From IMG/VR virus record IMGVR_UViG_3300029101_000001: DNA of 64,000 nt, one strand, 5' to 3'. The first letter of the stretch is position 1. Every line of letters begins with the position of its first letter. Of the stretch, positions 1 to 41,479 are shown one piece after another. The DNA comes from a virus. The position numbers were made by a program, and so were the translations under genes. The notes beneath the pieces were generated by a model. The model was not told the origin of the DNA, did not search any database, and worked only from the letters and a program-made list of their open reading frames with translations.

Positions 1-126
1 TATATCCTATCCCTCTGTCTTCTCTATTTTTCGGCTTATGAAATCCTCAACCTCCATTCCAGAATGTCCATCCCATTCTGTTGCTAAATCTGTAATCTGA
101 TTAGGTAAATTTTCAAATTTTGCCAT
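1..126 (-). CDS. hypothetical protein, 5' part (ATG at 124-126, gene runs off the window start); in-frame TAG present
   Basis: Minus-strand translation MAKFENLPNQITDLATEWDGHSGMEVEDFISRKIEKTEGQ(TAG)... read by eye. Confidence 0.35.
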
Positions 127-354
127 TTTTTACAAATCAATTATTTTTCCATGAATCATCTTTTAACCAAGGTCTGTCTTGTAGCCAAGTTCCGCTACCA
201 AAACAGCTTCTAACAGCATCGTATACGGTAAGCCAGACTAACTACGACCCTTTATATATAGCTCCAATGTTCTTTTGTACTCTTTGCTAAACTTGTTCTA
301 CAAGTTCTAGAATATCTTTTTGGACCTGTAATATTAACTTACCATTTCTATATA

Positions 355-708
355 TCATATTTTAGCAAAATCTTCTTTGACTTTAGCTTTTATCTATTTT
401 AATATGTTAAGATATTCTTTATATTCGTTAATAACTTCAGAGTCAGAAATAAGATTTTCTGAATAACTATTATATGAATTGATTAAATCAAATTCTTCAT
501 CAACCGTAAGGAATCTTCTAACTATAGCTTTTACACAATCTTTATAATTAGGCTATCCGTTTATTAATACCTATATAAAACTATAGTAAGTTTTTTCTTT
601 TACGGTATTATCTAAATCAGATACTTTAACACTAATTTCTTTTATATCATAGTTATAGTAATAAGTACCGTTCCCAAGTTTTTGGATTGTCTAAGGATAA
701 ACGTCCAT
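355..708 (-). CDS. hypothetical acidic protein, 117 codons with 4 in-frame TAG codons; overlaps the RT 3' end by 56 nt
   Basis: Codon-by-codon minus-strand read, ATG at 706-708, TGA at 355-357. TAGs at 691, 571, 553 and 394. Frame differs from the RT frame. Confidence 0.4.
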
Positions 709-1927
709 TTGTATTCTATTCGGCTCTAACATAAGGTGTTATTTTAAAATTTATAGGAAATTTGTATCTAAGCAAAGAATAGTGTAATCTCCTATTCTTA
801 CTTTTAAAATAGTAGGGTTTATTGTTATACATGAAATGCACTCGAAAATGATTGTCATAATCAACAACCTCTACAATGTGAATATATTTATTATAAAACT
901 TAGATATGTTAACTTCTTTTCCATTCCAGTTAGAGAATTTCAATCCAGTTAACTCCTCTACCTTTCTCAGCAAGTTCTTAGAGTTGCAAAATTTCATCCA
1001 TCCAAAATAAGACCTCATTCTTCTATTCAATTCATCTTTATCAATCTTATTCTATTTATATAGATTTATAAGCCTAAACATCCTCATTTTTATAGATTTT
1101 CTCAGTAGAACATGAGTATGATAGAATTTATAGCCTACGAAATCAATACCTCTGCTTTCTACAGGGAATATTTGATAATTAGGCTTCAACTCTAGGTTAA
1201 GAACCTGTTTCAAATATAGTTTTATAGATACTAATACATTTCTCAAATAATTCTTGTCATTACCAAGAATCACAATATCGTCAGCATATCGAAAGTAGTA
1301 CTTACATTTTAACTCCTCTTTTACCCAGTGGTCAAAATATGTCAGATATAAATTTGCAAAGAATTGTGATAGATAATTTCCAATAGGAACTCCCTTCGCT
1401 GAATAAATTATTTCTTTCAACAGTTTTAATAGTTTTTTATCCTTTATCTTTCTCTATAACATTTCGTATAAAATGTCGTGAGTTATAGAAGGATAGAATT
1501 TTTTTATATCCATTTTCAAGCAATACTTTGTTTCTTCTGGATGTTTCTATAACACCTTAAACAAATCATACTCTACTTTATGAATACCTCTATTTCGTAT
1601 AGAGGAATATGTTTGGTCTATAAATATACTAGTCCAAATAGGCTCCATAATATTCATTATAGCATGGTGAGTTATTCTATCTGGATAGTATGGAAGTCTA
1701 AAGATTAATCTTTCTTTAGGTTCGTATATTATAAAGGTACTATATTCAGAGGTTTGATAAATCAAATCCCTTAACTTATCGGATAATTCCTTATTTTCTT
1801 TTAATCTATTCTTATCATGCTGCTTGATTCCACATCTAATAGACTTATTTCTTCTAGCTTTATCGTCAGCTAGTTCGATGTTATCTTCAGCGTATACTTT
1901 CTCGTGCAAATATCCTACACGTTTCAA
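653..1927 (-). CDS. DGR reverse transcriptase; gene contains at least 3 in-frame TAG codons read as sense
   Basis: Track ORFs 1547-1927, 1052-1420 and 716-1030 are all in one frame (coordinate mod 3 = 2). Each ends at CTA on plus strand (TAG on minus strand) and the frame continues to TAA at 653-655. Motifs RLIFRLPYYPDRITHHAIMNIMEP (RT fingers), GVPIGNYLSQFFANLYL (DGR-type IGxxxSQ signature), YADD catalytic motif. Cognate TR lies about 140 nt upstream. Confidence 0.8.
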
Positions 1928-2070
1928 TTTTTTATATATTTCATCGGAAGCGTTCGAGAATTAACCTACTAACACCCTTCATTCAACACTACGTTATCTT
2001 TTGCCTAGAGGCAAGGATATTACTTAGCAAACTAAAAAAAAATAATAAAATGTTTCTAAATATATAATAA

Positions 2071-2163
2071 CTCGACATTGGAATTGGCATTGCTGACGTC
2101 ATTGTTAGAATTGAAATAGCTGAGACCTGCATTGCTGCCATTATTCGCGTTGCTGCCTACTAG
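2071..2163 (-). repeat. DGR template repeat (TR), non-coding, adenine-rich at the variable positions
   Basis: Minus-strand sequence ctagtaggcagcaacgcgaataatggcagcaatgcaggtctcagctatttcaattctaacaatgacgtcagcaatgccaattccaatgtcgag. About 72% identical to VR1 and VR2. All mismatches sit at TR adenines, apart from one edge position in VR1. Confidence 0.85.
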
Positions 2164-2215
2164 CAGTACTTTTTTTGCCAATCAACGGTTTTTAGAAGTA
2201 ATATCCTACGATTTA

Positions 2216-4063
2216 TCATCTAAATCGATTTTTATATTGTATATCTTAAGATACTCTATTCAGAGTCCTGAACCCGACACCGGAACCGGCAACGCCGACG
2301 CCACCGTTAGAAAAGAAACAGCCGAGACCCGCATCGCCGCCATAATCCGCGCAGCTGCCCACCCGCAGCGTGCGAAGCGCTGTGCTGCTTGCGTTGCAGT
2401 AATGGTAATCGCAAATATAAGTAGTAGCACTTCCTCCAACAGCGGATGGAATTATTTCAGCGGTTTCACCTAAGTCAAATGCCTTAATATAACCATCAGA
2501 TGCTACTTCGTATCCTGCAACGGTTTTCTCTCCAACTACGTCGGTAAATTCCGATACGTTAGTAGTTGTATAGACAGTGCTAATCTCATTAGCAGCTGCT
2601 CTCACTATAACTACTCCGTCCAGGTTAGTCCAAATGTCTCCAAACGGATTATCGAACCCTCTCCAGCGAGGTACTTTAAATGTATGAGTTGCTACTGTAT
2701 TTGTGCCATCTTGAGCTGTACATTCTGGAATAACTAAATCTTTTACTCCAGTGAAGTTACCAAATTCATTGCAGTAACCACAAGGCGTAAGTGGATATGT
2801 TGCATTATATCCTGACCAACTTGTAGCTGCGTTAGCCCAATCTGTAACTCCAGGTCCCAAACCCCCTTGATGATATCCATCCGCAGTTAACTCTGCATTA
2901 TATGCAGCCTAAGAATTAAAATTAGCATATTCAATGACATAATTCCAGTAGAATATCCATTTGTAATATTCATAGCATAGCAATTCTGAACCAGCATTTG
3001 TTGCATATGTTCTCATAGTAGCTCTAGAAATATTAGTTCTAGGCTTTCCTAAATCACTTCTGAATATATCCTTAGTTTCTAATTCTGTAGTTAGATAATC
3101 ATCGTAGTTAGCTCTATTTCCTCCACCTCTAAATGCAGTAGTAGTATTAACTACTGATACAGCTTTTGGAGTTGCGGAGACTGTGGTATCAACTGTACTT
3201 CTGTATGCATCTATTAATAGTTCAGGAATTTCTACCCATGAATCATCAATTTTGACAGTAGAAGTTCTAACCCATCTTTTGTTTCCATCGCTGCCAGATT
3301 TTCCATAAAATTTAGGAGTATTAACTCTTACTGTTCCATCAGTTCCATCTAAGACAGATGGAGTTTCGCCGTCTTCTTTATAAGACCAGTCATCTGGAAA
3401 CAGATAGTAATTTACTACATCATTGTTTGCTACACAACCTCTATACGCTGACTGAATAGGAAGAGATTTATGCAACAAAGGATTACCTATTCTAGTAAGT
3501 TCCGGAGATGCTACTGTAACATCCCATTCTACTCCATAGGAATATAAATCCATATTACTATTTAGCTCAGTAACCTACTTATCAAGCTTTTGTTGTGCCT
3601 TCTACAATTCTTCCCAAGCCTCATTTAGCGCTGTAAATTGCTCTTCTAGCTTAGAACTTGAATCTGCCCATTCAGCAGTACCATCTGCTGAGAAAACTAG
3701 CATCTATCCAGACGCTCCTCCAGATGGAATATGTTTATTTCCAGAAGTAGTTGGGTGTACATAATTATTAGCATTATTAGCTATAGTACTTAACTTTTCC
3801 TTCTCAGTTTCAGTATAATTGGCTTCAGAAAGTCCCTTTCCTAACTCCTTATCTACTTTGCCTTCAAGCTCACCCTTAGTAGCTAATTCACTAATATCCT
3901 AATGCTCAGTTAAATATCCACTATCATTCTGTAACTAAGAAATTTTAGTTGGAATTGCATTAGCCTTGGCATATGTCGTATCTATAACATTTCCAGCACC
4001 ATCGTAAGTAGCTTTTAAATCATATGTGGTTTCCCCAACCTTTATAGATTTGATTGCTGCCAT
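2216..4063 (-). CDS. DGR target protein 1, tail-fibre / receptor-binding-like, about 615 codons with several in-frame TAG codons; VR near C-terminus
   Basis: ATG at 4061-4063 sits directly after an in-frame TAA at 4073-4075. Continuous reading frame verified through TAGs at 3899, 3935, 3704, 3602, 3575, 2909 and 2246, ending at TGA 2216-2218. Track ORFs 2909-3553 and 2246-2860 are in the same frame. Confidence 0.7.
2273..2367 (-). repeat. DGR variable repeat VR1 (3' end of target gene 1)
   Basis: Hand alignment to TR: 26 differences at TR adenines (mostly A to G or T) and 1 non-A mismatch near the 5' edge. GC-rich island in AT-rich DNA. Confidence 0.85.
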
Positions 4064-7000
4064 ATCATTGTATTATTAAAGTTTCATCAACTACATCGTG
4101 ATCTATTCCCTCTATGGAAGCAGTTAGGTCCTCAACAGCCTTCTACAATTCTGCTTTAGTAGCATAGTTCTTGAGAACTTCCTAGTCTACTCCAGAGCCT
4201 CCTCCTATACTTCCTCCAACAACTTTTACTGGTTTGGCAGAACTCTTAAACTGTCCTTCAATATAAATTGTTCCCATATTGTTTAAAATATTAATTGTTC
4301 ATTTTCTCCATCTACCTCTACACTAGAACCTGGCTATAAAGCGTCTATCTTTTTCTACAATTCGGCTACGGCCTAGCTAATTAGTTCTTCTACCTCAGCT
4401 TTGGTGTAGTATCTCTCTATAAGATATTCGCTTCTAACATATCCAGTATCTTGTAAATCTTTTTCTCCATAGGTGCAATAATAAGTATCTTCTTCAGTCT
4501 TACTATTCTCAACTAGGTCATCATAATCAGCTTGTGGTAAGCATACAAGTTTTGGTACTTCTTCAGTAATAGCAACTTGCTTACCTCCAGCAAATAGCCT
4601 GTTATCTTCTGTGGTAAGTTTAACAGAACTCTCAATAACTTGCTCAGTTCCTGTTTCCTCAGAAGGTTCTCCAGTTGTTCCCTATTGTACTTCTTTTTCT
4701 CCAATTTTCTAAATAGTAATATCAGAAGTTTCTACTGATGTAGATTTCAAAAGCTCAGTGCTAAATTCTTTAGCAGCAGCAGCCTAATCATCCTGATATT
4801 TTTTCTAGGTAACAAATATGAAATCATCATCTCCGGTTTCAGGAGAGTCTCCCCTTAAACTTTCTTTTGTTACGTAATCTTCGGCTATCTAATCTGATAA
4901 ATCAGATAATGACTATTGAGTAGCATAAGTAGACTGAGCATTTTCCTTAGTAAGAAATTTGTCATCAACCTGCTAAATAGTATAATAAGCCTTAATATCT
5001 TCTGTAGTAACGTAGTTTCCAAGTTTTTGCAAACCTTGAACTATTTCATCAATCTACTTCTTGGAGTAATAATTTGTAGCAACCCAGGACTGATATTGAT
5101 TAGTAGTATGATAATTCTAATCCAAATATTCCTTAGTAATATAAACCTTTGCATCATTTGTGACGTCATATACATAGTAATATGTATCAGGCTCTACCGT
5201 CCCTTCCTCTACTAACTTTAGATACTCTTCTTCAGTTAATGTTACTAAGTTCGGAATATCAGATTCAGTAGCAATCTAATCTTCACCTATAAATAATCCT
5301 TCAGACCTAACGTCTACTACTAGCTAGCTCTCTCCCTCTACTACAGGAGATTTTATCTATCCAACAGTGATGCTTTCTAAGGAACCATCTCCATCTACCT
5401 TAAGAGTTTTATCTAACTCGTCTTGGATGGCCTACTAATCTTCCTCATATTCTTTCTTTGTAACGAAGACAAAATCATCTCCTTCCATTCCCTCTCCTCT
5501 AAGGCTTTCTTTAGTAACGAAAATATCGTCTGTTTCTTCCTTAGTATAATACTTAGTCAGGGATAGAGCTAAAGAATCATTAGAGACATAATTAGTAGTT
5601 AATTCTTCCAGTGTAGCATAATCTGATAGGCTGGCAATAGTGTTATCTAAGTCTGTTCTAATCTATACTACAGTAGTATTAAGGGCCTTCTGTTTTAATT
5701 GCTCTTCTATCTTTTTTCCCCATTCTGCGGATAGGTAAAACTAGTCATCGTCTAAGCTATCCTCATATATATAATAATATGTCTCAGCATGAAGATACGT
5801 TTTACTTTCATCTATGGGCCTAAAATCGTCTGTAGTATTCTCAGACCATTCTTTATATTCAGCCTCTGTACAGGTGATTATCTAGATAGATTCATAGGAT
5901 GCTTTCCATCCTTCCTTGTATTTAATCTTAGACTTATCAATCAGCATATAAATATTTCCGTTATCTATGTTAGCAACGGTCATACCTTGATAAGCATACT
6001 TCTCTGGAATAGAATAAAGTTCGTCTAAGTTATTAACGACTGTTCTATTATCGAGAGGCTTCGGAGTTTCTACGGTTAAAGCGACACCTAAGGTAGCATC
6101 ACCTGTATATTTAAATGCCATTATTGTGATAGAATAAAGTTAATTTGATGTGGCAATGCTGAGGAGTAAGTATCTTTCTTAGTCCATACCTTGTAAGTAA
6201 ATCCATTTATCTACTCGGTAGACGTTTCCCAACCACTTAGGTCTACATTTAAATATCCAAGTCCTCCATCTACGGTAAATGAATTTAACTATGTGTTACT
6301 TCCTGGCAATTTTATAATAGCCTTACCACTTAGTGAAAATGTGATAGTTCCAGACGATTGTCCAAAAGGAACTAGCGCCTATTTAATCACACTATCAGTA
6401 TTACCAGAATACCAAGGATATGTGGCTACTACCTAAGCGGTAGCGGAAATAGAACCAGCTTCTACTCTCTTATCTGTAACTTCTCCTTTATTGTTTATCA
6501 AATATTCTCCAGCGGCATAACTCACTGTACCAGAGTGAGTATAAGTACCAATAGAATTATATGTATCAGACTCTACAGGAGAACTGTTATAAGTAATAGT
6601 TTCTTGTCTGTCAGTTTCTTCTCCAGCATCATTCTTTATAAATGTAAGTGTAGGAGTTAATAAAGCAGTTCCTACTTCTACTATTTGAGAAGTAAAACTA
6701 TAATAAAGCTATGGGTATACTAAATCTCTAACTACTGTTGGAAATAGTAAAGTATCAATAATCTCATTAAAGGGCTTGCCCTTAAGTTTCTCTACTGTAG
6801 TCCCTTCAATTACTGTTGAAGTAGTATCATCTGGGAGTTCTGTCTAATAAGTAGCTATAGTTTCTAAGTTAGTTTGTATATTAGTAATACTTTCAGTATT
6901 AGCTTCTACTTTAGTATTTGTCTCTTGTTGTGCTTCCTAAGTTTTCTATACTTCTTTCTTTGTTTCTTCTAGAGCAGGTTCAAGATTCTTAACATAGATA

Positions 7001-11449: not shown

Positions 11450-13900
11450 TTCCGCAATAGCCTCGTTTGTCTTGTCTATCAATTCCTTCTCTTTCATAAC
11501 ATAAATTATGTTGTTCTGGAGGAAGTTTAGTAGCGTTATAATACTTAACTCTTTGTAACTTCCTACTTCTTAATTCTTCCTTAATAAATGGCAGAAATTC
11601 TTCGTCTGGTAAATCTGCTATTATTACTAATGGCATTTCTGACCTATCAAAGTTAAAAGAGACTTTATACCCAACTGGGTCTAAACTCTCAATATCTAGT
11701 CCGCCTATATACTCCATTTTGTACAAGTCCCTCATATATTCTAGGATCACTTGTTTCAACTCTGTATGGGTCATCATATTCGTTTCTTTGCATATTAAGT
11801 TCAGGAGTTTTCTTAGTTGGAATAACTCCAAATCTTTTAATTCCTCTCTCGTCGTAATAGTAACCAAAATCTTGGAACTATTCAACTTCTTTCTCCACAA
11901 GTACGGGCTGTCTTCCTGATAGCTCTTGGTCTGCTAACTCAGTCATACCTACAGCGGCTACAATATCATACTTACCCTTATTTTCATCATTATATGCAGT
12001 GAACTATTCTAGCATTTCTTCGAACCATATAGTATGGCAATAGTCTTCTATAAAGGCGGCTGTTAAATCAGTATGCTATTCGATTATAGTTTTTGTAGCA
12101 GGAGTTCCATACTATTTAGTAGTTCCATTTCTAACGTCAGTTAGAGTAGCTCTTGGGCGCTTCATAAAATAGTTAAGGCATCCTTTTTCTCTAGCCCAAG
12201 TAACCATACCCATACGAGTAGCTTCTATATTTATTTTACAATTATAATAGCGAGCTAAACACATAGCTATTTTATAGGCTTCTCTGATGTCTCCAGGTCT
12301 ATCCTTGTACATAGCAACATACTGAGGGTCATTCATACCAAATGTACGTTTCTTAATCGTTATGCAGAAATCAGACGGGTCTCTGGTTTCCTTAGAAGTC
12401 TAATTCGCTCCAATATCAATACCGTCTATACCTGCTACGTATAAGTCTCGCATCTCTTTATAAACTGGAACTTCAAAATCCTAGCCATTATCTTCTGCCT
12501 CCTATCTAAGCTTTTCCATTTGTTCTTTATATAAGTCAGACCATATTGGATGCTCTAGAATTTTTACTTTACCATTGCTGTTAGGAATCCATTTAAAACC
12601 ATCAATGTTATCCTAAGTATGTTTATTATTTTTGTAAAAATAATCAATATAACCACATTCGGGTCTTGGACCAATTTGTTTAAGTCTTATATTAGCTATC
12701 TATTCGGCAACTAAAATTTTATTAAACTTATTAACACCTTCTAGATTAAATGCTTCTTCTGCATTCCAACAACGTTCAGCACATTTCTTTAGGTAGTCTT
12801 CTGGTACAGCTAATAGATTATCTCGCTCCTCCTATAAGAATTTCTTATATTCCACAGTATTACATACTCCTCTGTGGTCCATAAATTCTGGATTCAAAGA
12901 TTGTATAAAGTATGGAATAAAGAATCCACTCTCTATAGTAGTCCCATCCTAAGTCCAATTATGTCTAAATGGAAGAATCTTATATGCTCTTGGATTATAG
13001 TAAATCTTTTTTAAGCCCTCTAGAGGAGCACCCATATCACCGCCAGTACCTCCAAACAACATTGTTCCACGAGGCATACCTTGAACTTCACAAAGTTCTT
13101 GACCTTGTACTACAGCGGTATCAAGTCCAGGCCAGGAACCAGCTTCATCATATATTAATAAATCTACACGGTCTCCACGAATGTTAGATGGTTTAGCTCC
13201 GTTAATTGCTACAACCTCAGATTTAAATCCTACGTCTTCAAACTAACCATTTATTTTGATTTGTTTACCTGATTTCTTTCTCAAATCCTGGTCAATAAGT
13301 CGTAATTTAAAAAATCCTCCTCCAGTACAGGTATTTAAGAATGTAAGAGCATTATCAAACTTACTAAAGGTACCCTTAAGGAAGGTATCATTAAAGCAAG
13401 TAATCATAACCCTACTTCTTCTAATAACAGAGTACATACGAGCAGAAAGAGAGGCGTTTATTTCAGAGAATCCAATAGAACGAGCTTTCATTAAAGCTGC
13501 GTGCTTGTGTAGCACTCTAGCCATCTATAGATAATGAAAGAACATATAATGTGATGCAAAGAATATTGGGAAGTCATTATCAGTACCCTCACCAGAGGCT
13601 TTCTACTAGTCAATAGTAGGTAACTAATAGAAATTTAAGAAGAAGTAATTATCTCCAGTAATGGTGTACCCATTAACTGTCATTCCATACTTACATCTTC
13701 TATATTGCTCTTTCCAAAATTCGTTGTACCGCTTACTATCTCTAAGGTAGGGACAGTATTGACCAGTTCGTTTATATACTTCCCTAGTCTCGGTAAACCA
13801 ATCTGGATTAAAGTCCAATCCATGAGTTTCGTCAATAGGTCTGTATCCAGTTATTTCATAAGATAAGGTAGGGTCAAATACTTCTATTTTATCTCCTATT
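11450..13900 (-). CDS. putative terminase large subunit (approximate ends); in-frame TAG codons
   Basis: Track ORFs 13624-13818, 13243-13524 and 12112-12336 share one frame, and translation continues through TAGs. Contains hhhhDE-type Walker-B-like LLIYDEAGSW and later YVAGIDGIDIGAN (nuclease-like). Read by eye, the Walker A motif was not located. Confidence 0.35.
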
Positions 13901-15441
13901 TTAACATCCCAATAGTCAGAATTTCTGACCCTTTCCTCTCTTATTTTCTATACTAGTTCTCTAGCTTCTTTAGCATCCTCTTTCTATTCTTTTTCTCTTA
14001 CCTAATCTACAATATTCTATATTTCTTCAGGTAATATCTTTTTTCTTGGCATAATTAAAAGTCTCCTGGGTCAAAACCATCCACAGCTCCAGCTCTAACA
14101 GTAGATTGTTCAGTAAGTTCTTTCTTAACCTAGTCTTCTAGTGTTATGAGTTCTTCATGAACTTTGTGAAGGGTAGCCATTTCCTTCATTACTTTTTCAG
14201 CCTGGAATACTGGCTTGCCGTTATTATCACGCTCATTTAAATCTACAATAGTTTCGAAATAATCAATAAACTAGTCTGCAGCTCTTTTAGCTGCTTCTAG
14301 TAATTTTATTGACTTGTTTGAATCTTGTAACGCTCTGTATTTCCTACAAGCTTCTCTAAATATAGGGTCATTAAATTCTGACTCTGTCAATCCAGAATCA
14401 CTAATAGCTTCGTCATGTCGTTCATGTTCCGAATACTAACTGTACGGACTTTTCCAGTCTATAGCTAAATAAATGTAAGATAGTTCTCTAGTAGCTCTAT
14501 CCTTTTCTGCAGATTTATCCCTCTAGATTAAAGCCTTAAATTCCTTAACTAGCAATATCTCTGGTTCATTTATTTCTAGCTATTTAGTTAAAGTGTTATA
14601 GTTAAATACATTCATAATCATTAATCATTATCATACACATTAGATAATCTTATTATTTCTTTTTCATTTTGGAACCGCACTTATTGACTTTCATTTTTGA
14701 GCCACAAGCGTCTTTCTTAGCATATTGTTTTCTGTCAGGAACCCATTTTCCTCCCTGGAAATTACCCTTATGTCCTTTATTGGCCATAGTTTCCTAATCA
14801 TTGTATTTATTGATTGATATAGAATCTCTTGAGGCTTCGTCTCTAGCAGATTTCATATCTTTCTTATACTAAGCTCTTCCAGCCTTAAATTTATCAACTT
14901 CATTAGCTTTCTTAGTAACTTTAGTTCCTTTTTGTGCTTTCTGGCAAGCTTTACAGATTCTACCGCCTTGCTTAAAATATACAAGCTCTTCTCCTTCTGG
15001 ACATACTCCTTTTAGCTTCTTATAATACTCAAGCTTAGCTCCAAGCCTAGCCATTACTCCTCCTTGCATTTTCTGCATAAATTCCTGATACTTAGCTTTA
15101 ATGCCGTCTTCACCTAATTGTTCAGCATAAGCTTGTAAATCCTATTCAGATTGTACTTGTATTCCCTACGCAGCGGCATCTTGTATTAGATATGCCATAA
15201 ATGCTTTTTGTAATTCTTCCTAGTTAGCCATTACTCTTCTACTTTAATTAAATCCTTAGTATTAAACACTGCTTCCTACATAAGTCCGGAATCAGTAAAC
15301 CATCTACATCTTAATCCTCGTAATCCTTGGTTATCTTTAAATAAAGCTGCTTCTCTTCTTAGAACAAGCATAACTGGAGAATGCATTACTTTACACTACC
15401 GTAAAGTAACACAATCCCCAGGCTTAAAATAAACTTTTTCA

Positions 15442-16044
15442 TCAATTGTTTCCATACTTCAATTCGTTTCTTCTTTCAGTTAGCTTTTCGTTAACTACAG
15501 CCATAATTCTGTTCTCATTAACTACAACAAATCCAAACTTGTAGAACGGAACCATGCACTCGCTAGCTATTGTATAGAATACTATATCTCCAGGTTTTAG
15601 GAACTCACACTTGTGCCCAACCTCAATAACAGTACCCACTTTAATAAATTGTTGTTCTTCTTCTATTTCTCCTGTTTCATTAGATTTATATGTTGGAGCA
15701 AACCCACCTAAGTCTGTAATTAATCCACTCTTAGTAGTTTTAATTTTTTGAAACGGATTTTGTTCGAAAGGTTTAATTAATGCATACCCATACATAGGCA
15801 TAATTTCTACACCATTCATATCCTCAGATAATGATTTGGCGTAAGATTCTAAAGCTGCATTATGTTTAGAGAATTTATCTTCTAATTCATCTACTGCTGT
15901 ATTGAATCTTTCCTGTTTTTCTCTTAATAAAGTTTTATCTGCAGCTTCTCCATTTACTATAAGGTGCTGTCCTGTACCTTCCATACCAGTTATAGCTAGT
16001 GCTAGTTTCTCATTACTGTTTAATTCTGTTCTTAAAGTTTCCAT
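15442..16044 (-). CDS. protein with C-terminal GroES-like co-chaperonin domain
   Basis: C-terminal IKPFEQ...SGLITD...IKVGTVIEVGHKCEFLKPGDIVFY...NENRIMAV resembles GroES/gp31 mobile-loop and beta-barrel motifs. Confidence 0.35.
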   Translation of the reverse strand: METLRTELNSNEKLALAITGMEGTGQHLIVNGEAADKTLLREKQERFNTAVDELEDKFSKHNAALESYAKSLSEDMNGVEIMPMYGYALIKPFEQNPFQKIKTTKSGLITDLGGFAPTYKSNETGEIEEEQQFIKVGTVIEVGHKCEFLKPGDIVFYTIASECMVPFYKFGFVVVNENRIMAVVNEKLTERRNELKYGNN

Positions 16045-16052
16045 AATTCATT

Positions 16053-16391
16053 TTACCATTTACATAAATCACAATGTTCATCTTCTATTCTAGTTTTGTT
16101 CTCTAGTATACAACCACATTCCTCACATACTTCCCCAAATGAAGTCTGTAATTTATGAGGACAAGTATTACAAATATTTAATCTTGTGGTTGCTAAATCT
16201 TGATTAATTCCAAATATATGGAAATATATACTCTTCAATATTACTAAAGGTTTAGTAAATATTGCTTTAATCCATTTCTTTGGCATCTTTTCAGTAGGTT
16301 CTTGAGTCATAAGTATATAAGCCTTAGTAGGGTTAGCCATTACTGGAGTCCCATATAGTAATAAATTATTTACCATTTCTTCGCAGGACAA
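16053..16391 (-). CDS. Cys-rich zinc-ribbon protein
   Basis: Track ORF with multiple CxxC pairs. Confidence 0.4.
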   Translation of the reverse strand: MSCEEMVNNLLLYGTPVMANPTKAYILMTQEPTEKMPKKWIKAIFTKPLVILKSIYFHIFGINQDLATTRLNICNTCPHKLQTSFGEVCEECGCILENKTRIEDEHCDLCKW

Positions 16392-16585
16392 TGCTTCTTC
16401 TCATTAGGTATCTTTAATTCCAGTAGACATCCACATCCTTTTATATACCCTTCTTTTGGGCCAATACTTATGTCATTGTTTTCTGGATTTAAATACAACT
16501 GTCCATTACATATTGCATCTTCTTGATTACATATTGGACAGCGTCTACATATTTTCCATCTTTCTTCTATTTCCTCTAGTGTCAT
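16370..16585 (-). CDS. small zinc-ribbon protein
   Basis: CRRCPICNQ...CGC...HCP motifs. Confidence 0.4.
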   Translation of the reverse strand: MTLEEIEERWKICRRCPICNQEDAICNGQLYLNPENNDISIGPKEGYIKGCGCLLELKIPNEKKHCPAKKW

Positions 16586-16587
16586 AA

Positions 16588-17502
16588 TTAATATTCAATA
16601 CGTTGACGTTTCTTTTTATTTTCTGCCAATATAGATTCTTTCTTGTAAAAAGAAAGCATTCTTATTACTTCATCTTTTAAGTATGGTAAGTGATATACTG
16701 TCATGTTATCACTGTGGTCGAAGTGTACTAAAACTAAATCTTCAATTTCAAATTCTGGGTTTTTCTTCTGAATCATCCAGGCGTAAGTACTTAGCTGAAG
16801 GGCATAATGCCAATAATTAACATCATCTAAATTATTTAGAGGATACTTCATCTTAACTGATGTCTTAGTTTTAGAATTAAAGAAACTCTTTGTTTCTATT
16901 TTTTTATTAGTCTTCCAGTCACCAATAATTATCTTATTACCTCTTTTAACTAATAAGTCAATTTGTCCAGCTATTCTTAGTTTTCCGTCCTCAGATACTC
17001 TAGAGATTAGATACTCAGGATATACCCCATTCTCCAAATCTAGATTGTTATAGTCTTTTATACACTCAAACTTGCCACCTATTTGATATTTACTTAGGTC
17101 TATATCCTTCTTCTTTTTGTAAAAAGAGTTTTCCAAATCTGCATGGATTCTAGTTCCTCTCTCGCAAGAGTTTCTGTTCTCCATATCCCATGCATCTAAG
17201 ATAGCTTGTTGTTCTTTATTAAACTCGTCTTCTGTAATGTTATGAAGTTCAAGTAGAACTTTGTCAAATTTCTTAGTATTCAGCAGAGATTTTTTCTCGA
17301 TAGCCCAATCTTCTTTAGGTAGAAGTTTCTCTAGTGCTTTATAAGCTGACCAGAACTCTTTATCAAAGGGTTGGGTGAAAGAATGAATTAAAGTCGTTAC
17401 AGATATAAATTTCTGTTCTGGCTTTGTAACATCATAATAAATATGAGCTTCCTCTTCGAAAGCTATGTTCCCATTTTGTTTTGTAATTTTACTTTTGTCC
17501 AT
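16588..17502 (-). CDS. PD-(D/E)xK superfamily nuclease (YqaJ / lambda-exonuclease-like)
   Basis: 304 aa ORF without TAG. Motifs ERGTRIHADLE, GQIDLLVKRG, IIGDWKT, QLSTYAWM. Confidence 0.55.
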   Translation of the reverse strand: MDKSKITKQNGNIAFEEEAHIYYDVTKPEQKFISVTTLIHSFTQPFDKEFWSAYKALEKLLPKEDWAIEKKSLLNTKKFDKVLLELHNITEDEFNKEQQAILDAWDMENRNSCERGTRIHADLENSFYKKKKDIDLSKYQIGGKFECIKDYNNLDLENGVYPEYLISRVSEDGKLRIAGQIDLLVKRGNKIIIGDWKTNKKIETKSFFNSKTKTSVKMKYPLNNLDDVNYWHYALQLSTYAWMIQKKNPEFEIEDLVLVHFDHSDNMTVYHLPYLKDEVIRMLSFYKKESILAENKKKRQRIEY

Positions 17503-17616
17503 TAGTCATAATTCATTTAATCATTTATCACATTTATCTATATTTATTTGATACTTTTCAAGTATATTAATATTCTTTGTAAGATACAAATCAATAAATA
17601 ATACATTATATTAAAA

Positions 17617-17958
17617 ATGTCTAATATGACAAAAATGGTAACATTTGGATGTCCAATTTTTAAAAACGGGTCAGGCATTCATATTAAAGAGAAAAACAAA
17701 GGTAAATTTACTGCCTCTGCTAAGGCTGCAGGATAGTCTGTACAGGAACATGCTAAATCTGTACTAAACAATCCTAATGCTACTCCTCTTCAGAAGAAGC
17801 GTGCTAACTTTGCTAGAAACGCGGCTAAATGGAAACACGAAGATGGAGCTAAGATACATAAACCAAGTGGACATAGATCTATTCTAGATAATGGATGGAT
17901 TCCTACTACTAGATTAAAGAAAGGAAATTATGGATTAATTAAAACAAGAAAGCAATGA
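17617..17958 (+). CDS. hypothetical basic protein with in-frame TAG (plus-strand island inside the late block)
   Basis: ATG 17617 to TGA 17956. One TAG read as sense (AAGQSVQEHAK). Confidence 0.4.
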
Positions 17959-18032
17959 ACGCTGTAGTTAAATTAATTAAAGAATTTATACTTAAGATAT
18001 ATCTTTATTTACTATTTATATTTAATAAGTAA

Positions 18033-18227
18033 TATGGACTATAATAGAGCAACTCTTTATGCGGCTACTGGTCGTACTTTATTACTCCCTGGCTGGAAAG
18101 GGTATTTTTATTGGGACTATACTAAGAATGAATTAAATTTTAGAAATGGAGACTATCATTTAGATAACAAATAGCTCAAGGAGAAAGGAGTTATGGAACG
18201 TAATGATTGGTATTATATAATATGATA
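18033..18227 (+). CDS. hypothetical small protein with in-frame TAG
   Basis: MDYNRATLYAATGRT...DNKQ(TAG)LKEKGVMERNDWYYII by eye. Confidence 0.3.
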
Positions 18228-18614
18228 ATTAAAAATAATATTATACCGTTTGGAGGTTATAAAGTAATTAATCTGTTTGGATTAATATTTACTAAGTCGG
18301 ATTTGACTGATGAGGATAAGAATCACGAGAATATCCATTCAGTATAGATTTTAGAATGTGCAATAGCGTTTGCAATACTTATATCTATATTATTTGGATT
18401 AGAATGGGTATGGTTAGCTATTCCATCTTTCTATATCTGGTATGGATTAGAGTATTTAATTATACGACTATTAAGACTTAAAGATTCTCAAAATGATTGC
18501 TACAGAGATGTAAGCTTTGAAGAAGAAGCTTATATGAATGAAGACAATTTACAGTATCTAGAAGGATAGAGAAAGATGTTTTCATGGATAAAATATCTAA
18601 AAGTTAATGCATAA
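18222..18614 (+). CDS. hypothetical membrane protein with 2 in-frame TAG
   Basis: MIIKNNIIPFGGYK...hydrophobic AIAFAILISILFGLEWVWLAIPSFYIWYGL... ends with TAA. Confidence 0.35.
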
Positions 18615-18619
18615 CAAAA

Positions 18620-18660
18620 TAGGCGAACTTAGACAATTAAGTCTAGGCTCGCCTATTTTT
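18620..18660. terminator. bidirectional hairpin terminator between convergent genes
   Basis: Stem taggcga/tcgccta (7 bp), loop about 22 nt. T5 downstream on plus strand and T-run on the minus-strand side. Confidence 0.5.
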
Positions 18661-18871
18661 ATTTACTATTATACGTACAAGTGATTCTGTTTGGCTCTTC
18701 CCACCAAGGTTTATCTGAAAGTGGAGTTCTGATGCTATTGGGCCAATTTATAATTGGAGTAGTTTCCTCTACTATAGCCTCCATTATTTTAAATAATGTA
18801 TCCAAGTCTAGCTCTGGAAGCAGCTCATGAATATTAGTTATTGTTTTCTTATAATTTATCATACCCTTCAA
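18659..18871 (-). CDS. hypothetical protein
   Basis: Track ORF, ends at genuine TAA. Confidence 0.45.
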   Translation of the reverse strand: MKGMINYKKTITNIHELLPELDLDTLFKIMEAIVEETTPIINWPNSIRTPLSDKPWWEEPNRITCTYNSK

Positions 18872-19217
18872 AAGTGTCGTTAATAATTGCTTTCTCTATT
18901 GTAGTATCTTTATATAAACCATGTTGTAGTATATTTCTTACTTGATGGTCTATTTGATTCCATATATCTAATAATATAGAAGAATCATCTGAAAGACTAT
19001 ATTGTGGATAGCTAGCCCTTAAACTGCTAAGTACTTTGCCATTAATGTAAATGTCAAATACGAAATTTTTTATATCATCTGTAGTTTCTCCAGAAATTCC
19101 TGCAGCTCTTTGTAAAAGTTTAAGAGCCTTTTCATATACTTCTCTTTCTTCACGTTCTCTTCTTGAAGAATTAAACATCATCATATTTGCGGCTACTGAC
19201 ATATTAGTACGATACAC
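18849..19217 (-). CDS. hypothetical protein (N-terminus may extend through TAG)
   Basis: Track ORF, genuine TAA stop. Confidence 0.45.
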   Translation of the reverse strand: MYRTNMSVAANMMMFNSSRREREEREVYEKALKLLQRAAGISGETTDDIKNFVFDIYINGKVLSSLRASYPQYSLSDDSSILLDIWNQIDHQVRNILQHGLYKDTTIEKAIINDTFEGYDKL

Positions 19218-19366
19218 TTAGCTTATTTAAGTTGTCTAGATAATCTAAGAACCATTGTTCGTTTTGTTTTCCTTCTTCTACAATAGTATTAATTAAAGAT
19301 TCTGTAGCTAATAGTGTTATTTCTGCTAGTTCCTCTAATTCCGATTTAGTAAGTTCGTTATATTTT

Positions 19367-19681
19367 TCAATCAAGTTTAACATAATCCATCCAGTCTTTT
19401 ATATATGATTTACATTCTTCCAAATCTGGATAGATACTTGTTATAGAGCATCCAGTTTTCGGATTTTTAAAGTGGTGCATCTTAGCCTCTTCTTTTTTCT
19501 CCTCTTCTGTATTTCTATTTAATGTTCTATTCCAATAGTTGTACTTTTCATCTAACATTTCCATATCACATTCCTCTAATATTTTCATATTAGGGTTATT
19601 CATTATCTTGTCGTACTTTCTCTTTAAATTAGAGACTTTGACAACATCATTTCCATTTAATACAACTGCACACTGTTTCAT
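19367..19681 (-). CDS. hypothetical protein
   Basis: Track ORF, TAA stop. Confidence 0.45.
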   Translation of the reverse strand: MKQCAVVLNGNDVVKVSNLKRKYDKIMNNPNMKILEECDMEMLDEKYNYWNRTLNRNTEEEKKEEAKMHHFKNPKTGCSITSIYPDLEECKSYIKDWMDYVKLD

Positions 19682-19905
19682 TTCAATACCTTATAAGTAC
19701 ATATCTTGCCTATCTGTTTTCCTTGAATTGTTATTTGCGGAAGAAAATAGCAGGCTTGATTCTCAAATTCTTGAGGTACAAAGATATAATCAAACTTACT
19801 TCCAACTACCTTCTCACAAACTTTATTCCAATCGTCTCCCTCTTCTATAATAAGAGTTTTAGCTCCTGTTGGAGTTACTATATAATTCTCATTTAATTTT
19901 ATCAT
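19678..19905 (-). CDS. hypothetical small protein (start trimmed to MIKLNENY so it does not overlap the tRNA)
   Basis: Track ORF 19678-19980 overlaps the suppressor tRNA. An internal ATG at 19903-19905 gives a 75-aa product. Confidence 0.35.
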   Translation of the reverse strand: MIKLNENYIVTPTGAKTLIIEEGDDWNKVCEKVVGSKFDYIFVPQEFENQACYFLPQITIQGKQIGKICTYKVLK

Positions 19906-19922
19906 AACTATTAATTTTGGCG

Positions 19923-19994
19923 TTGCCCTACTAGGATTCGAACCCAGACTAAATGATTTAGAGTCATCTGTGCTGACCATTACACCATAGGGCA
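19923..19994 (-). tRNA. amber suppressor tRNA, anticodon CUA, probably charged with Gln
   Basis: Minus-strand cloverleaf: ugcccua ug gugu aauggucagcac a gauga cuCUAaa ucauu uagu cuggg uucgaau ccuag uagggca a. Acceptor, D-arm, variable loop and T-arm nearly identical to the phage tRNA-Gln(UUG) at 34204. Confidence 0.85.
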
Positions 19995-20534
19995 GTAACT
20001 TATTTCTCTTTTAGAGATTTATTTTCTGCTGCCAATTTCTCTAGTTCTTTTCTTAATTGTTCATTTTCGTGAAATAAAGCCTGCATAGTAGCGTTGATAC
20101 TAGCTAATAGTATTCTCATTTGAGCAACCTATTCATACATAAGCTTTCAGTTGTTCAATTCTCTTTTTAGCTATATCTGACAATGCCATTTTGAATTTAG
20201 CAATACCAGCTCTTACTGTTTCTAACTTGCCGCTTTCTAAGCATTCTTGTATTTTATGAACTTCAAGCTCTCCTAGATATTCGCATACATCTATAAATAA
20301 ATCATCATCTAGAGATTCTAAATATTTCTGGAATTGGTCTACCTCTTCATTAGCTAGACAGCTTTCTTCCTTCTATCTTTCATAAGATATTAATAAGAAC
20401 AAAGAATCGTCGGTAGATTCGGACTTAATAGTTAGCCCATTACCAGACATATAATATTCTTGATTCGTATTAATTGCCTCAACTAGCTATTTAAACTAGT
20501 CCTAATTTAACAATGTTTCTAAGTCTGTAATCAT

Positions 20535-22278: not shown

Positions 22279-22345
22279 TCCCTACTGGTATAATGGATTG
22301 CGTCTCCCGCTGGAGAAGATTCTGGTTCAAGTCCAGAGTAGGGAA
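22279..22345 (+). ncRNA. tRNA-like element with a truncated anticodon arm (4-nt loop)
   Basis: Acceptor ucccuac/guaggga, D-arm gguauaaugg, T-arm ucugg uucaagu ccaga. Anticodon arm ucucc-cgcu-ggaga has no 7-nt loop. Confidence 0.35.
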
Positions 22346-41406: not shown

Positions 41407-41479
41407 TCTCAAACATGGGCCGTTAGCTCAAATGGCTAGAGCGCTGGTTTTGCACACCGGAAGATAGGGTTCGAGTCCC
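41407..41479 (+). tRNA. tRNA-Ala (UGC) with G3:U70, imperfect base of acceptor stem
   Basis: cuggu uuUGCac accgg. G3-U70 present. Three mismatches at acceptor pairs 5-7. Confidence 0.55.

What the first reader, a model, noticed from the sequence alone, without database searches (positions are those of the whole stretch)
1..20534. Late block translated with TAG as a sense codon; suppressor tRNA(CUA) derived from the phage tRNA-Gln sits at the head of the block
Between 1 and 20.5 kb, ORFs of 60 aa or more are rare. No ORF of 60 aa or more is called between 8.6 and 11.1 kb on either strand, yet the minus strand reads as continuous protein when CTA on the plus strand (TAG on minus) is sense. Every checked ORF end is a TAG followed by same-frame continuation, and real stops are TAA or TGA. 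tRNA-Sup(CUA) at 19923-19994 shares its acceptor stem (U1-A72), D-arm, 4-nt variable loop, T-arm and A73 with tRNA-Gln(UUG) at 34204-34275. It differs mainly in the anticodon stem-loop, which argues for TAG to Gln. Plus-strand early genes use TAA/TGA almost exclusively.
Basis: seen in the sequence. Interest (0 to 1): 0.7.

Follow-up and report, generated by a model that had tools for sequence, protein, structure and literature searches.

The report
Phage late genes read TAG as glutamine

Summary
With the standard code, coding density in 1-20534 is 0.43. With TAG as sense it is 0.92, and with TGA as sense only 0.46. The restored minus-strand frames encode TerL (20 TAG), portal (28 TAG), tail proteins and a DGR reverse transcriptase. 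None has an in-frame TAA or TGA.

TAG means glutamine. Across 11 related contigs, TAG columns pair mainly with CAA (296) and CAG (134), and Gln is by far the best-fitting residue. In two relatives without in-frame TAG, 32-38% of the window's TAG columns hold CAA/CAG, against 5% background.

A tRNA(CUA) lies at 19922-19994(-). Its closest paralogue in the window is tRNA-Gln(UUG).

- The recoded block is not uniform. Minus-strand genes at 15442-17502 and 18849-19905 have no TAG.
- Three plus-strand genes at 17.6-18.6 kb do use TAG.
- The acceptor stems differ at two base pairs.
- 7 of 67 early ORFs end in TAG.

[quoted passage not shown] Near-identical genomes are public. Novelty is low.

Side observations: a RAGATH-14 RNA joined to a second, decayed suppressor-type tRNA, and a phage tmRNA.

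The parts
19922..19994 (-). Amber suppressor tRNA, anticodon CUA ('A-type'), of tRNA-Gln body type; co-oriented with the late genes
   Evidence: ARAGORN; Rfam tRNA 66.3 bits. 46/55 identity to tRNA-Gln(UUG) outside the anticodon arm. Conserved at the same position in relatives.
20133..20534 (-). First minus-strand ORF (133 aa), 4 in-frame TAG, upstream of the suppressor tRNA; function unknown
   Evidence: Homologues in L016, L025, L028, L037, L042 and L052. A 133-aa gene is called at the same place on the near-identical contig L003.
18849..19905 (-). Three TAG-free minus-strand genes (75, 104 and 117 aa), function unknown
   Evidence: 0 TAG. Gene calls of the same lengths on L003.
17617..18614 (+). 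Plus-strand island of three small genes (about 110, 63 and 130 aa), each with 1-2 in-frame TAG; the last is a membrane-type protein matching phrog_15610
   Evidence: Genes of 130, 63 and 110 aa are called on the opposite strand of L003.
15442..17502 (-). TAG-free minus-strand genes: GroES-like (15442-16044), 107 aa, 71 aa, and a PD-(D/E)XK exonuclease (16588-17502)
   Evidence: 0 TAG; PHROG and Pfam matches.
14653..15231 (-). Late ORF, 192 aa, 5 TAG
14055..14621 (-). Late ORF, 188 aa, 5 TAG (phrog_16390); sits immediately upstream of TerL
11689..14052 (-). Terminase large subunit, 787 aa, 20 in-frame TAG, TGA stop
   Evidence: phrog_6681 E=5e-60. 2,560 homologues. Codon alignments.
11439..11735 (-). 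Small ORF (about 98 aa, 0 TAG) overlapping the TerL end and the portal start
   Evidence: a 98-aa gene is called on L003.
9326..11497 (-). Portal protein, 723 aa, 28 in-frame TAG
   Evidence: phrog_6547. The only PDB match is crAss001 portal gp20, E=1.4e-12.
4283..9324 (-). Four late ORFs of mostly unknown function: 243 aa (9 TAG), 255 aa (4 TAG), 524 aa (12 TAG; weak tail-protein match) and 612 aa (20 TAG)
   Evidence: Homologues in relatives.
2246..4063 (-). Tail protein, 605 aa, 6 TAG; target of the diversity-generating retroelement (variable repeat at 2271-2368)
   Evidence: phrog_5302 E=2e-80; TR/VR alignment.
2069..2166 (-). DGR template repeat, 73/98 identical to the variable repeat; nearly all mismatches fall at template A positions
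653..1927 (-). DGR reverse transcriptase, 4 in-frame TAG
   Evidence: phrog_1423 E=3e-112; RVT_1.
355..732 (-). Late ORF, 125 aa, 4 TAG
34204..34276 (+). Phage tRNA-Gln(UUG), the closest paralogue of the suppressor in the window
22082..22346 (+). RAGATH-14 RNA (22082-22252) followed 26 nt later by a tRNA-like gene (22279-22346). The latter is homologous to the second ('B-type') suppressor tRNA of relatives, but its anticodon loop is cut down to 4 nt (CGCT)
44074..44622 (+). HTH plus HNH-like endonuclease ORF (182 aa) with 5 in-frame TAG, inside the tRNA array. It is the only convincing TAG-using gene in the 'early' region

Best explanation
The window is part of a crAss-like phage of about 186 kb, most probably of the Zeta group.

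Shown here:
- The packaging, tail and DGR genes on the minus strand (355-15231), one ORF at 20133-20534, three small plus-strand genes at 17.6-18.6 kb and one HNH-like ORF use TAG as a sense codon.
- TAG stands for glutamine and supplies half of the Gln-type codons in these genes (121 TAG versus 120 CAA+CAG).
- The phage carries a tRNA with anticodon CUA and a tRNA-Gln-type body at 19922-19994(-).
- The remaining genes are readable with the standard code. These are the plus-strand block from 20.8 kb on, with its 26 tRNA genes, and two minus-strand clusters of non-structural genes.

Inferred:
- The suppressor is charged with Gln by the host GlnRS. From established E. coli work (recalled, not tested here), GlnRS keys on U35 and the weak 1-72 pair, and CUA-anticodon tRNAs such as supE and su7 insert Gln.
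- The suppressor competes with host RF1 at UAG.
- TAG-containing genes therefore yield full-length protein only once the suppressor has accumulated. This would delay virion and probably lysis proteins relative to the standard-code genes. It is the model proposed for recoded phages by Borges et al. and Yutin et al.
For: - Coding density 0.43 to 0.92 with TAG as sense, versus 0.46 with TGA as sense.
- Restored frames are recognised phage proteins: TerL, portal, tail protein, RT.
- In 48 of 50 IMG/VR relatives TerL has 9-31 in-frame TAG, often at the same columns. In the 41 without an insertion in TerL there are no in-frame TAA or TGA.
- TAG columns exchange with CAA and CAG. Pooled partners are CAA 296, CAG 134, GAA 119. 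CAA is two substitutions away from TAG, so this is not mutational proximity. Gln fits best by about 1,200 log-likelihood units.
- In two TAG-free relatives, Gln codons sit at 32-38% of the window's TAG columns versus 5% background.
- The suppressor tRNA is conserved upstream of the structural block in relatives.
- Among hits with the same D-arm and T-loop, every U1/A73 tRNA was a Gln isoacceptor or a CUA suppressor.
- TAG-free versus TAG-rich genes on the same strand: P about 2e-11.
- 7 early ORFs end in TAG.
- Published proteomics show TAG read as Gln in structural proteins of two crAss-like phages (PMC9523058). [quoted passage not shown]
Against: - Nothing here measures translation, charging or timing.
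- The first TAG-containing ORF (20133-20534) lies upstream of the suppressor. TAG-using and TAG-free genes are interleaved on one strand, so a simple 'one late operon' picture is too neat.
- In relatives, a second suppressor tRNA sits on the early strand at the head of the early block. This fits early expression of suppression better than a late switch.
- At least one relative (L028/L185) has 24 TAG in TerL, but no CUA tRNA was found in the roughly 10 kb upstream of TerL.
- No RF2, GlnRS or other code-change gene was seen among the window proteins scanned. Only 64 kb of about 186 kb is available.
- Alignments to distant standard-code Crassvirales TerL (22-28% identity) were uninformative about the residue.
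Confidence: 0.9

Rival explanations
1. The decoding is the same (TAG read as Gln through the phage tRNA), but suppression is not a late-gene timer. It is switched on from the start and mainly harms the host by reading through host TAG stops. On this view early genes lack in-frame TAG simply because they must work before any phage tRNA exists.
For: Relatives carry a second CUA or UUA suppressor on the early strand, right at the start of the early block. Some Zeta crAss-like phages keep suppressor tRNAs without any recoding, and an anti-host role has been proposed (PMC12386605, PMC7886860). Readthrough of the 7 TAG-terminated early ORFs would add only 2-22 residues.
Against: In this window the early-strand copy has a 4-nt anticodon loop and cannot decode. 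The only intact suppressor is on the late strand. The sharp split between TAG-free non-structural genes and TAG-rich structural genes is what a timing device predicts. The two roles are not mutually exclusive.
Confidence: 0.2
2. TAG encodes an amino acid other than glutamine, for example pyrrolysine (ARAGORN's label for any CUA tRNA), Glu, Lys, Tyr, Trp, Leu or Ser.
For: ARAGORN prints 'tRNA-Pyl'. Glu is the second commonest partner of TAG columns. The D-arm motif is not specific to Gln, because it is also typical of Patescibacteria tRNA-His.
Against: Gln codons are 39% of the non-TAG partners, and the likelihood gap to Glu is about 1,200 units. Columns with invariant Gln are encoded by a mix of TAG, CAA and CAG. 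The tRNA lacks the G-1/C73 of tRNA-His and has the U1-A72/A73 end seen in Gln isoacceptors. It is an ordinary cloverleaf scoring 66 bits on the tRNA model. Proteomics in related phages found Gln (PMC9523058).
Confidence: 0.03
3. The decoder is not the tRNA at 19922-19994. It would be another factor: a suppressor elsewhere in the genome, the B-type tRNA family, or a host or phage factor that weakens RF1.
For: Relative L028 has 24 TAG in TerL, yet only a UUA-anticodon B-type tRNA was found nearby. Published surveys find a suppressor in only about 40% of TAG-recoded phages (bioRxiv 10.1101/2021.08.26.457843).
Against: In this window the A-type tRNA is intact, high-scoring and strictly conserved among close relatives (identical in L003, L009, L015, L022, L025, L046 and L049). 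The B-type copy is broken.
Confidence: 0.07
4. The region is a decayed or misassembled block of pseudogenes, and the TAGs are real stops.
For: None beyond the fragmented appearance under code 11.
Against: There is no TAA or TGA in about 4,800 codons. The same TAG-containing genes occur in 50 independent contigs, and the TerL cluster has 2,365 member sequences. TAG positions are conserved and interchange with Gln codons.
Confidence: 0.01

Closest known systems
TAG-to-Gln ('code 15') recoding of late genes in crAss-like phages (Yutin et al. 2021, PMC7886860; Borges et al., bioRxiv 10.1101/2021.08.26.457843; Peters et al. 2022, PMC9523058)
   Same: In-frame TAG is confined mostly to structural and packaging genes. 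TAG aligns with Gln. The phage encodes a tRNA(CUA). The other genes are compatible with the standard code. The source is the gut. A homing-endonuclease ORF in the early region is also recoded, as Borges et al. describe for another phage clade.
   Different: Nothing of substance. Here TAG-free non-structural genes are interleaved with TAG-using genes on the 'late' strand. No release-factor or synthetase gene was seen in the 64 kb available.
Zeta-group crAss-like phages with amber suppression (PMC12386605, Table 1: e.g. cthgQ11, 188,977 bp, 27 tRNAs, polA, 34.7% GC, CTA suppressor, amber suppression, DGR present)
   Same: Relatives' contigs are 178-194 kb. The window has 28 tRNA-type genes, 35.9% GC, a CTA suppressor, amber recoding that includes the DGR RT gene, and a DGR aimed at a tail protein. 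TerL is only 22-28% identical to classified Crassvirales, as expected for a deep branch.
   Different: Membership was not tested by phylogeny against named Zeta genomes. That paper does not mention a tmRNA. This search did not show whether it mentions a second suppressor-type tRNA next to a structured RNA.
E. coli supE (glnV) amber suppressor, tRNA-Gln with anticodon CUA
   Same: A Gln-type tRNA body with a CUA anticodon inserts Gln at UAG in competition with RF1 (established knowledge, not tested here).
   Different: supE is a single-base anticodon mutant of a cellular tRNA-Gln. This tRNA differs from the phage's tRNA-Gln(UUG) at 18 of 72 positions, including the whole anticodon stem. In the B-type family of relatives the CUG, CUA and UUA forms do differ by single anticodon bases.
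Other stop-codon-recoded phages: Lak, Agate, Jade, phAss-1 (bioRxiv 10.1101/2021.08.26.457843; PMC10607447)
   Same: Stop-codon reassignment concentrated in late genes, with phage suppressor tRNAs.
   Different: Some of those carry RF1, RF2 or tRNA synthetase 'code-change modules'. None was seen in this window. They belong to different phage lineages.

Membership tests
Stop-codon-recoded phage genome, TAG to Gln (genetic code 15) | Conserved genes are interrupted by in-frame TAG only, and the frames are restored when TAG is read as sense | tested here: met
   density 0.43 to 0.92. 121 TAG and no TAA or TGA in about 4,800 late-gene codons.
Stop-codon-recoded phage genome, TAG to Gln (genetic code 15) | TAG positions align with Gln in homologues | tested here: met
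   The test with TAG-free relatives L053 and L055 is free of gene-caller bias.
Stop-codon-recoded phage genome, TAG to Gln (genetic code 15) | Phage-encoded suppressor tRNA with anticodon CUA | tested here: met
Stop-codon-recoded phage genome, TAG to Gln (genetic code 15) | Recoding concentrated in structural, packaging and lysis genes; replication and early genes compatible with the standard code | tested here: met
   'Late' and 'early' are inferred from gene content, not measured.
Stop-codon-recoded phage genome, TAG to Gln (genetic code 15) | TAG is actually translated as Gln in infected cells | not testable with these tools
   Needs proteomics. This has been done for two other crAss-like phages (PMC9523058).
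Crassvirales / crAss-like phages, Zeta group | TerL and portal related to crAss-like phages | tested here: met
   tblastn of TerL hits Crassvirales TerL at 22-28% identity. The only PDB match of the portal is crAss001 gp20.
Crassvirales / crAss-like phages, Zeta group | Placement inside the Zeta clade of the TerL tree | not tested
   No named Zeta reference sequences were available in the collections searched.
Crassvirales / crAss-like phages, Zeta group | Genome of 145-192 kb | tested here: met
   Contigs carrying near-identical TerL are 178-194 kb. DXLM01000001.1, 186,052 bp, carries identical Sup and Gln tRNAs.
tRNA-Gln-derived suppressor | tRNA body closest to Gln isoacceptors | tested here: met
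   The best match among the window's tRNAs is Gln(UUG), 47/56 outside the anticodon arm; the next best are 42-43. The U1-A72/G2-C71/C3-G70/A73 end is shared with Prevotella-type tRNA-Gln(CUG). The margin is modest.
tRNA-Gln-derived suppressor | Descent specifically from the phage's own tRNA-Gln(UUG) gene | tested here: inconclusive
   18 differences in 72 nt, including the whole anticodon stem and two flipped acceptor pairs. Cellular Gln tRNAs are almost as close (42-44/55).
tRNA-Gln-derived suppressor | Aminoacylation with Gln | not testable with these tools
   Needs a charging assay or tRNA-seq of acylated tRNA.

The most novel reading that the evidence does not exclude
The most novel reading concerns the second tRNA locus, not the TAG recoding itself. 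In this phage clade a RAGATH-14 structured RNA is always followed, about 30 nt later, by a Gln/suppressor-type tRNA on the early strand. The anticodon loop of that tRNA differs among closely related genomes, some of them near-identical: CUA (amber), UUA (ochre-type), CUG (Gln), a 6-nt loop, and a 4-nt loop in this window. The rest of the tRNA stays intact. This could be a unit in which RAGATH-14 controls or processes a suppressor tRNA whose decoding capacity is switched on, off or retargeted by anticodon-loop mutation. Alternatively, the tRNA-like part may serve as a processing handle for RAGATH-14. It would also give RAGATH-14, an orphan RNA motif, a genomic partner.
Probability: 0.15. Interest if true: 0.55.

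Novelty: already known. Interest (0 to 1): 0.2.

Why it matters
For annotation it matters a great deal. With the standard code, the terminase, portal, tail and DGR genes of this abundant gut phage break into fragments and would be missed. The region should be translated with table 15, while the rest of the genome fits table 11. For biology it is one more example of phage stop-codon reassignment confined mainly to late genes, which is already well documented. The patchwork of TAG-free and TAG-rich genes on one strand, and the decayed second suppressor, add small details on how the code switch is organised and how it evolves.

Tried and rejected
- Alignment of TerL with distant standard-code Crassvirales and Flavobacterium-phage TerL (22-28% identity). 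TAG columns fell on assorted residues (E, N, V, P, K), so the alignment is too diverged to read the residue. I replaced it with codon-level comparison inside the family and with two TAG-free relatives at about 50% identity.
- Homologue proteins from the big protein database show Q at TAG columns. These were called with code 15 ('translates_to_query: no'), so that count is circular. I did not use it as evidence for Gln.
- U1-A72 as a Gln signature: four other tRNA genes in the window (three standard ones plus the decayed B-type copy) also have U1-A72, so it is weak evidence on its own.
- The shared D-arm as a Gln signature: a genome-wide pattern scan returned mostly Patescibacteria tRNA-His (109 of 120). 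Only the combination with U1/A73 points to Gln.
- 'Backup stops' after TAG-terminated early ORFs: extensions of 2-22 codons do not differ from the control (median 5 versus 9).
- Sigma-70 promoter and terminator scan of 14-22.5 kb: fewer promoter-like sites than in shuffles and nothing usable.
- The repeat finder missed the DGR repeats; blastn with short words found them.
- Code-15 ORFs gained in the early region were inspected one by one. All but the HNH-like ORF are N-terminal extensions, short readthrough tails, or antisense ORFs over tRNA genes.
- The cluster look-up gave no source names for TerL.
- The literature search for 'RAGATH-14' found nothing.

Full report
**1. The observation**

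ARAGORN finds 28 tRNA-type genes in the window. Only the tRNA with anticodon CUA at 19922-19994 lies on the minus strand. Rfam's tRNA model scores it 66.3 bits, the same as the phage's tRNA-Gln(UUG) at 34204-34275.

Under the standard code, ORFs of 60 aa or more are sparse and short in 1-20.5 kb. None lies between 8438 and 11130 on either strand.

| Region | Code 11 | TAG as sense | TGA as sense |
|---|---|---|---|
| 1-20534 | 0.429 | 0.921 | 0.461 |
| 1-15300 | 0.365 | 0.937 | 0.376 |
| 20535-64000 | 0.756 | 0.827 | 0.761 |

These are coverages of a greedy non-overlapping ORF set. Stop-to-stop frames of 100 aa or more on the minus strand go from 35.5% to 86.0% coverage. The effect is therefore specific to TAG and to this part of the window.

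The restored frames end in TAA or TGA and hold up to 28 in-frame TAG.

**2. What the restored genes are**

PHROG, Pfam and PDB searches identify the following:
- terminase large subunit, 11689-14052, 787 aa, 20 TAG;
- portal, 9326-11497, 723 aa, 28 TAG; its only PDB match is the crAss001 portal gp20, E=1.4e-12;
- tail protein, 2246-4063, 6 TAG;
- reverse transcriptase, 653-1927, 4 TAG;
- several ORFs with little or no functional match.

The RT, a template repeat (2069-2166) and a variable repeat at the 3' end of the tail gene (2271-2368) form a diversity-generating retroelement. The repeats are 73/98 identical, with mismatches almost all at template A positions. The 'ORF' at 1983-2231 is the template repeat region, not a gene.

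**3. Which amino acid**

The protein database holds 2,560 TerL relatives. The best one is identical to the window's protein with Q at every TAG. Those proteins were called with code 15, because their genes do not translate under table 11. The Q at TAG columns is therefore circular, and I set it aside.

I worked at the codon level instead.
- Of 50 IMG/VR loci with a TerL relative, 48 have 9-31 in-frame TAG. Two (L053, L055; about 50% identity) have none.
- Inside the family, conserved columns are encoded by a mix of TAG, CAA and CAG.
- I pooled 12 late genes against 11 representative loci. The non-TAG partners of TAG are CAA 296, CAG 134, GAA 119, AAA 56 and so on.
- Scoring this spectrum against the empirical substitution profile of each amino acid from the same alignments gives Gln -2427, Glu -3624 and Lys -3692.
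- CAA, the commonest partner, is two substitutions away from TAG, so the pattern is not mutational neighbourhood.
- In the two TAG-free relatives, the window's TAG columns hold CAA/CAG in 18/57 and 15/40 cases. Background Gln is 5% (binomial p about 2e-10 and 8e-10).
- Alignments to distant standard-code Crassvirales TerL were too diverged to help.

TAG supplies 121 of 241 Gln-type codons in the late genes. Counting it raises their Gln content from 2.5% to 5.0%.

**4. The tRNA**

The suppressor and tRNA-Gln(UUG) are both 72 nt and have the same architecture.
- They are identical at 54/72 positions overall and at 46/55 outside the anticodon arm.
- The D-stem is identical, with one difference in the D-loop.
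- The variable loop matches at 3/4 positions and the T-arm at 15/17. Both have A73.
- Acceptor pairs 3-70 and 4-69 are C-G in the suppressor and G-C in tRNA-Gln. The anticodon stem is unrelated.

Gln(UUG) is the best match among the window's tRNAs (47/56 against 42-43 for the next), which is a modest margin. U1-A72 also occurs in four other tRNA genes here (three standard ones plus the decayed B-type copy).

I scanned one genome per species for the shared D-arm plus T-loop.
- 109 of 120 hits were Patescibacteria tRNA-His, which has G-1 and C73.
- Every hit with U1 and A73 was either tRNA-Gln (UUG x4, CUG x3, the latter in Prevotella MAGs with the same U1-A72/G2-C71/C3-G70/A73 end) or the CUA suppressor itself.
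- One 186,052-bp contig filed as a 'Bacteroides sp.' MAG (DXLM01000001.1) carries identical copies of both phage tRNAs. It is evidently this phage.

The body is therefore of the Gln type. Whether it arose from the phage's own tRNA-Gln or from a host gene cannot be settled here.

**5. Anatomy of the recoded region**

Reading the minus strand from 20534 downwards:

| Coordinates | Strand | Content | TAG use |
|---|---|---|---|
| 20133-20534 | - | 133-aa ORF | 4 TAG |
| 19922-19994 | - | suppressor tRNA | - |
| 18849-19905 | - | three genes, function unknown | none |
| 17617-18614 | + | three small genes | 1-2 TAG each |
| 15442-17502 | - | PD-(D/E)XK exonuclease, two small ORFs, GroES-like protein | none |
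| 355-15231 | - | packaging, tail and DGR genes | TAG-rich |

Zero TAG in the 978 codons of the TAG-free minus-strand genes has P about 2e-11 at the late-gene rate.

Gene calls on a near-identical public contig (L003) have the same lengths.

In the plus-strand region beyond 20.8 kb, reading TAG as sense adds only N-terminal extensions, short readthrough tails and antisense ORFs over tRNA genes. The one exception is an HTH plus HNH-like endonuclease ORF at 44074-44622 with 5 in-frame TAG, which sits in the tRNA array.

Of 67 plus-strand ORFs, 38 end in TAA, 22 in TGA and 7 in TAG. Readthrough of those seven would add 2-22 residues, which does not differ from a control.

**6. What phage this is**

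TerL is 22-28% identical to TerL of classified Crassvirales, and the portal matches only the crAss001 portal among solved structures. Contigs with near-identical TerL are 178-194 kb, and the TerL cluster has 2,365 member sequences.

Yutin et al. (PMC7886860) define the Zeta group of crAss-like phages. Its genomes are 145-192 kb with many tRNAs including suppressors. [quoted passage not shown]

A 2025 survey (PMC12386605) lists Zeta genomes of 182-189 kb with 24-27 tRNAs, about 34.5% GC, a CTA suppressor, amber suppression and DGRs. It also notes amber codons in seven DGR RT genes. The window fits this description. I did not test clade membership with a tree.

**7. Mechanism**

Shown:
- TAG is a Gln codon in a defined set of genes.
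- A Gln-type tRNA(CUA) is encoded next to them.
- The other genes do not need it.

Inferred:
- Host GlnRS charges the tRNA. This draws on E. coli work on GlnRS identity elements and the supE and su7 suppressors, recalled rather than tested.
- The tRNA competes with RF1.
- Full-length virion proteins appear only after it accumulates. This is the timer model of Borges et al. (bioRxiv 10.1101/2021.08.26.457843).

Peters et al. (PMC9523058) showed by proteomics that TAG is read as Gln in structural proteins of two crAss-like phages.

Points that do not fit a simple late operon:
- A TAG-containing ORF lies upstream of the tRNA.
- Relatives have a second suppressor on the early strand. This keeps the 'anti-host readthrough' idea (PMC7886860, PMC12386605) alive as a partial rival.

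**8. The second tRNA locus (outside the finding's coordinates)**

Relatives carry a second, 'B-type' tRNA about 2.3-3.4 kb beyond the first, on the opposite strand. Its anticodon is CUA in most, UUA in at least seven, and CUG (Gln) in one. Two have a 6-nt loop.

The window's homologue at 22279-22346(+) keeps the acceptor, D and T arms, but its anticodon loop is reduced to CGCT. ARAGORN reports 'tRNA-???', and Rfam's tRNA model does not reach threshold.

In the window and in three of the four relatives checked with Rfam, the tRNA is preceded by a full-length RAGATH-14 RNA (166-174 bits) 26-55 nt upstream. L049, the relative whose tRNA has anticodon CUG, gave no RAGATH-14 match. An exact-motif scan found this RNA only in this phage clade.

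Genomes whose TerL is 97% identical to the window's differ in this anticodon loop (CUA, UUA, truncated). TerL of the genomes with UUA has no in-frame TAA.

One relative (L028/L185) has 24 TAG in TerL, but only the UUA tRNA was found nearby.

I did not find this arrangement described in the literature. A search for the motif name returned nothing.

**9. Verdict**

It is an instance of a published phenomenon in a published phage group, and near-identical genomes already in public collections are translated with code 15. Novelty: already known. Interest is low (0.2). The modest residual interest lies in the RAGATH-14/tRNA unit, the ochre-type anticodon variants and the phage tmRNA.

Noticed in passing
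window 22082-22346 (+): A RAGATH-14 RNA (174 bits, full length) is followed 26 nt later by a tRNA-like gene whose anticodon loop is only 4 nt (CGCT). Relatives L009, L016 and L025 have the same RAGATH-14 followed by a tRNA(CUA). L049, whose copy has anticodon CUG, gave no RAGATH-14 match. RAGATH-14 has no known function.
   Followed up: partly
L009-L054 and L179-L191 (B-type tRNA, about 2.3-3.4 kb from the A-type suppressor, opposite strand): The anticodon of this second tRNA varies between closely related phage genomes: CUA in most, UUA (ochre-type) in at least 7, CUG (Gln) in L049, and a 6-nt loop in L023 and L024. The genomes with UUA show no in-frame TAA in TerL.
   Followed up: partly
L028 / L185 (IMGVR_UViG_3300045988_113697, 282 kb): TerL has 24 in-frame TAG, but no CUA tRNA was found within 10 kb upstream. 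Only the RAGATH-14-linked tRNA with anticodon UUA was seen. Either a UUA tRNA reads UAG there or the suppressor lies elsewhere.
   Followed up: no
window 43375-43939 (+): A phage-encoded tmRNA (Rfam 62.2 bits, gathering 47) that ARAGORN missed. It has a G3-U70 acceptor pair, a canonical T-arm, the tag reading frame ATYSEVRMAA ending in TAA, and a 213-nt insertion in the pseudoknot region. The Zeta crAss-like survey (PMC12386605) does not mention it.
   Followed up: partly
window 653-4063 (-): A complete diversity-generating retroelement: RT (653-1927), template repeat (2069-2166), and variable repeat (2271-2368) at the C-terminus of a tail protein. One mismatch (T to G) is not at a template A.
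   Followed up: yes
window 44074-44622 (+): An HTH plus HNH-like endonuclease ORF (182 aa) with 5 in-frame TAG lies between tRNA-Ile and tRNA-Asp. It is a TAG-recoded mobile-element-type gene inside the otherwise standard-code region. The Pfam HNH match is below threshold (E=0.009); HTH_23 is above it.
   Followed up: partly
window 17617-18614 (+): Three small genes on the strand opposite to the late block each contain 1-2 TAG. The 130-aa one looks like a membrane protein (hydrophobic stretches seen by eye; not predicted with any tool) and matches phrog_15610 ('protease'). They may belong to a lysis cassette, but this was not tested.
   Followed up: partly
P0003; L036, L049, L054, L056 (TerL genes): Some relatives have TerL genes 0.3-1.2 kb longer. 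P0003 carries intein and homing-endonuclease Pfam domains (PF05204, PF05203, PF14528). These are inteins or introns inside a TAG-recoded gene, as reported for crAss-like phages, where Zeta genomes carry the most introns and inteins.
   Followed up: no
L099, L115 (DXLM01000001.1, 186,052 bp); L120; L133: Contigs filed under bacterial MAGs ('Bacteroides sp.', 'Clostridium sp.', 'Acholeplasmataceae') carry the phage's suppressor tRNA. It is identical in DXLM01000001.1 and L120 and differs at two bases in L133. DXLM01000001.1 also carries an identical tRNA-Gln. These look like phage genomes binned as bacteria.
   Followed up: partly
Genome-contig scan, L059-L178: The D-arm GGUGUAAUGGUYAGCAC with a GGUUCGARUCC T-loop is the standard form of tRNA-His(GUG) in Patescibacteria (109 of 120 hits). 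D-arm identity alone therefore does not indicate Gln.
   Followed up: yes
window 26.2-51.1 kb (+): The array of 26 tRNA genes includes unusually long or odd ones: Tyr(AUA) 83 nt, Asn 87 nt, Met 81 nt, Phe 78 nt. There is also an extra tRNA hit seen only by Rfam at 41417-41489. Introns or non-canonical structures were not examined.
   Followed up: no
window 25183-60419 (+): Auxiliary genes in the standard-code region: radical-SAM-like, SPFH/Band 7 (31031-32989), two AAA ATPases, an OmpA-like outer-membrane protein (54773-55789), nicotinamide phosphoribosyltransferase (57667-59217) and a PRTase (59610-60419).
   Followed up: no
L007 (NC_055898.1, cr115_1): The annotated TerL CDS of this classified Crassvirales phage (Suoliviridae) contains 7 in-frame TAG. 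This is an independent example of code-15 use in another crAss-like family.
   Followed up: no
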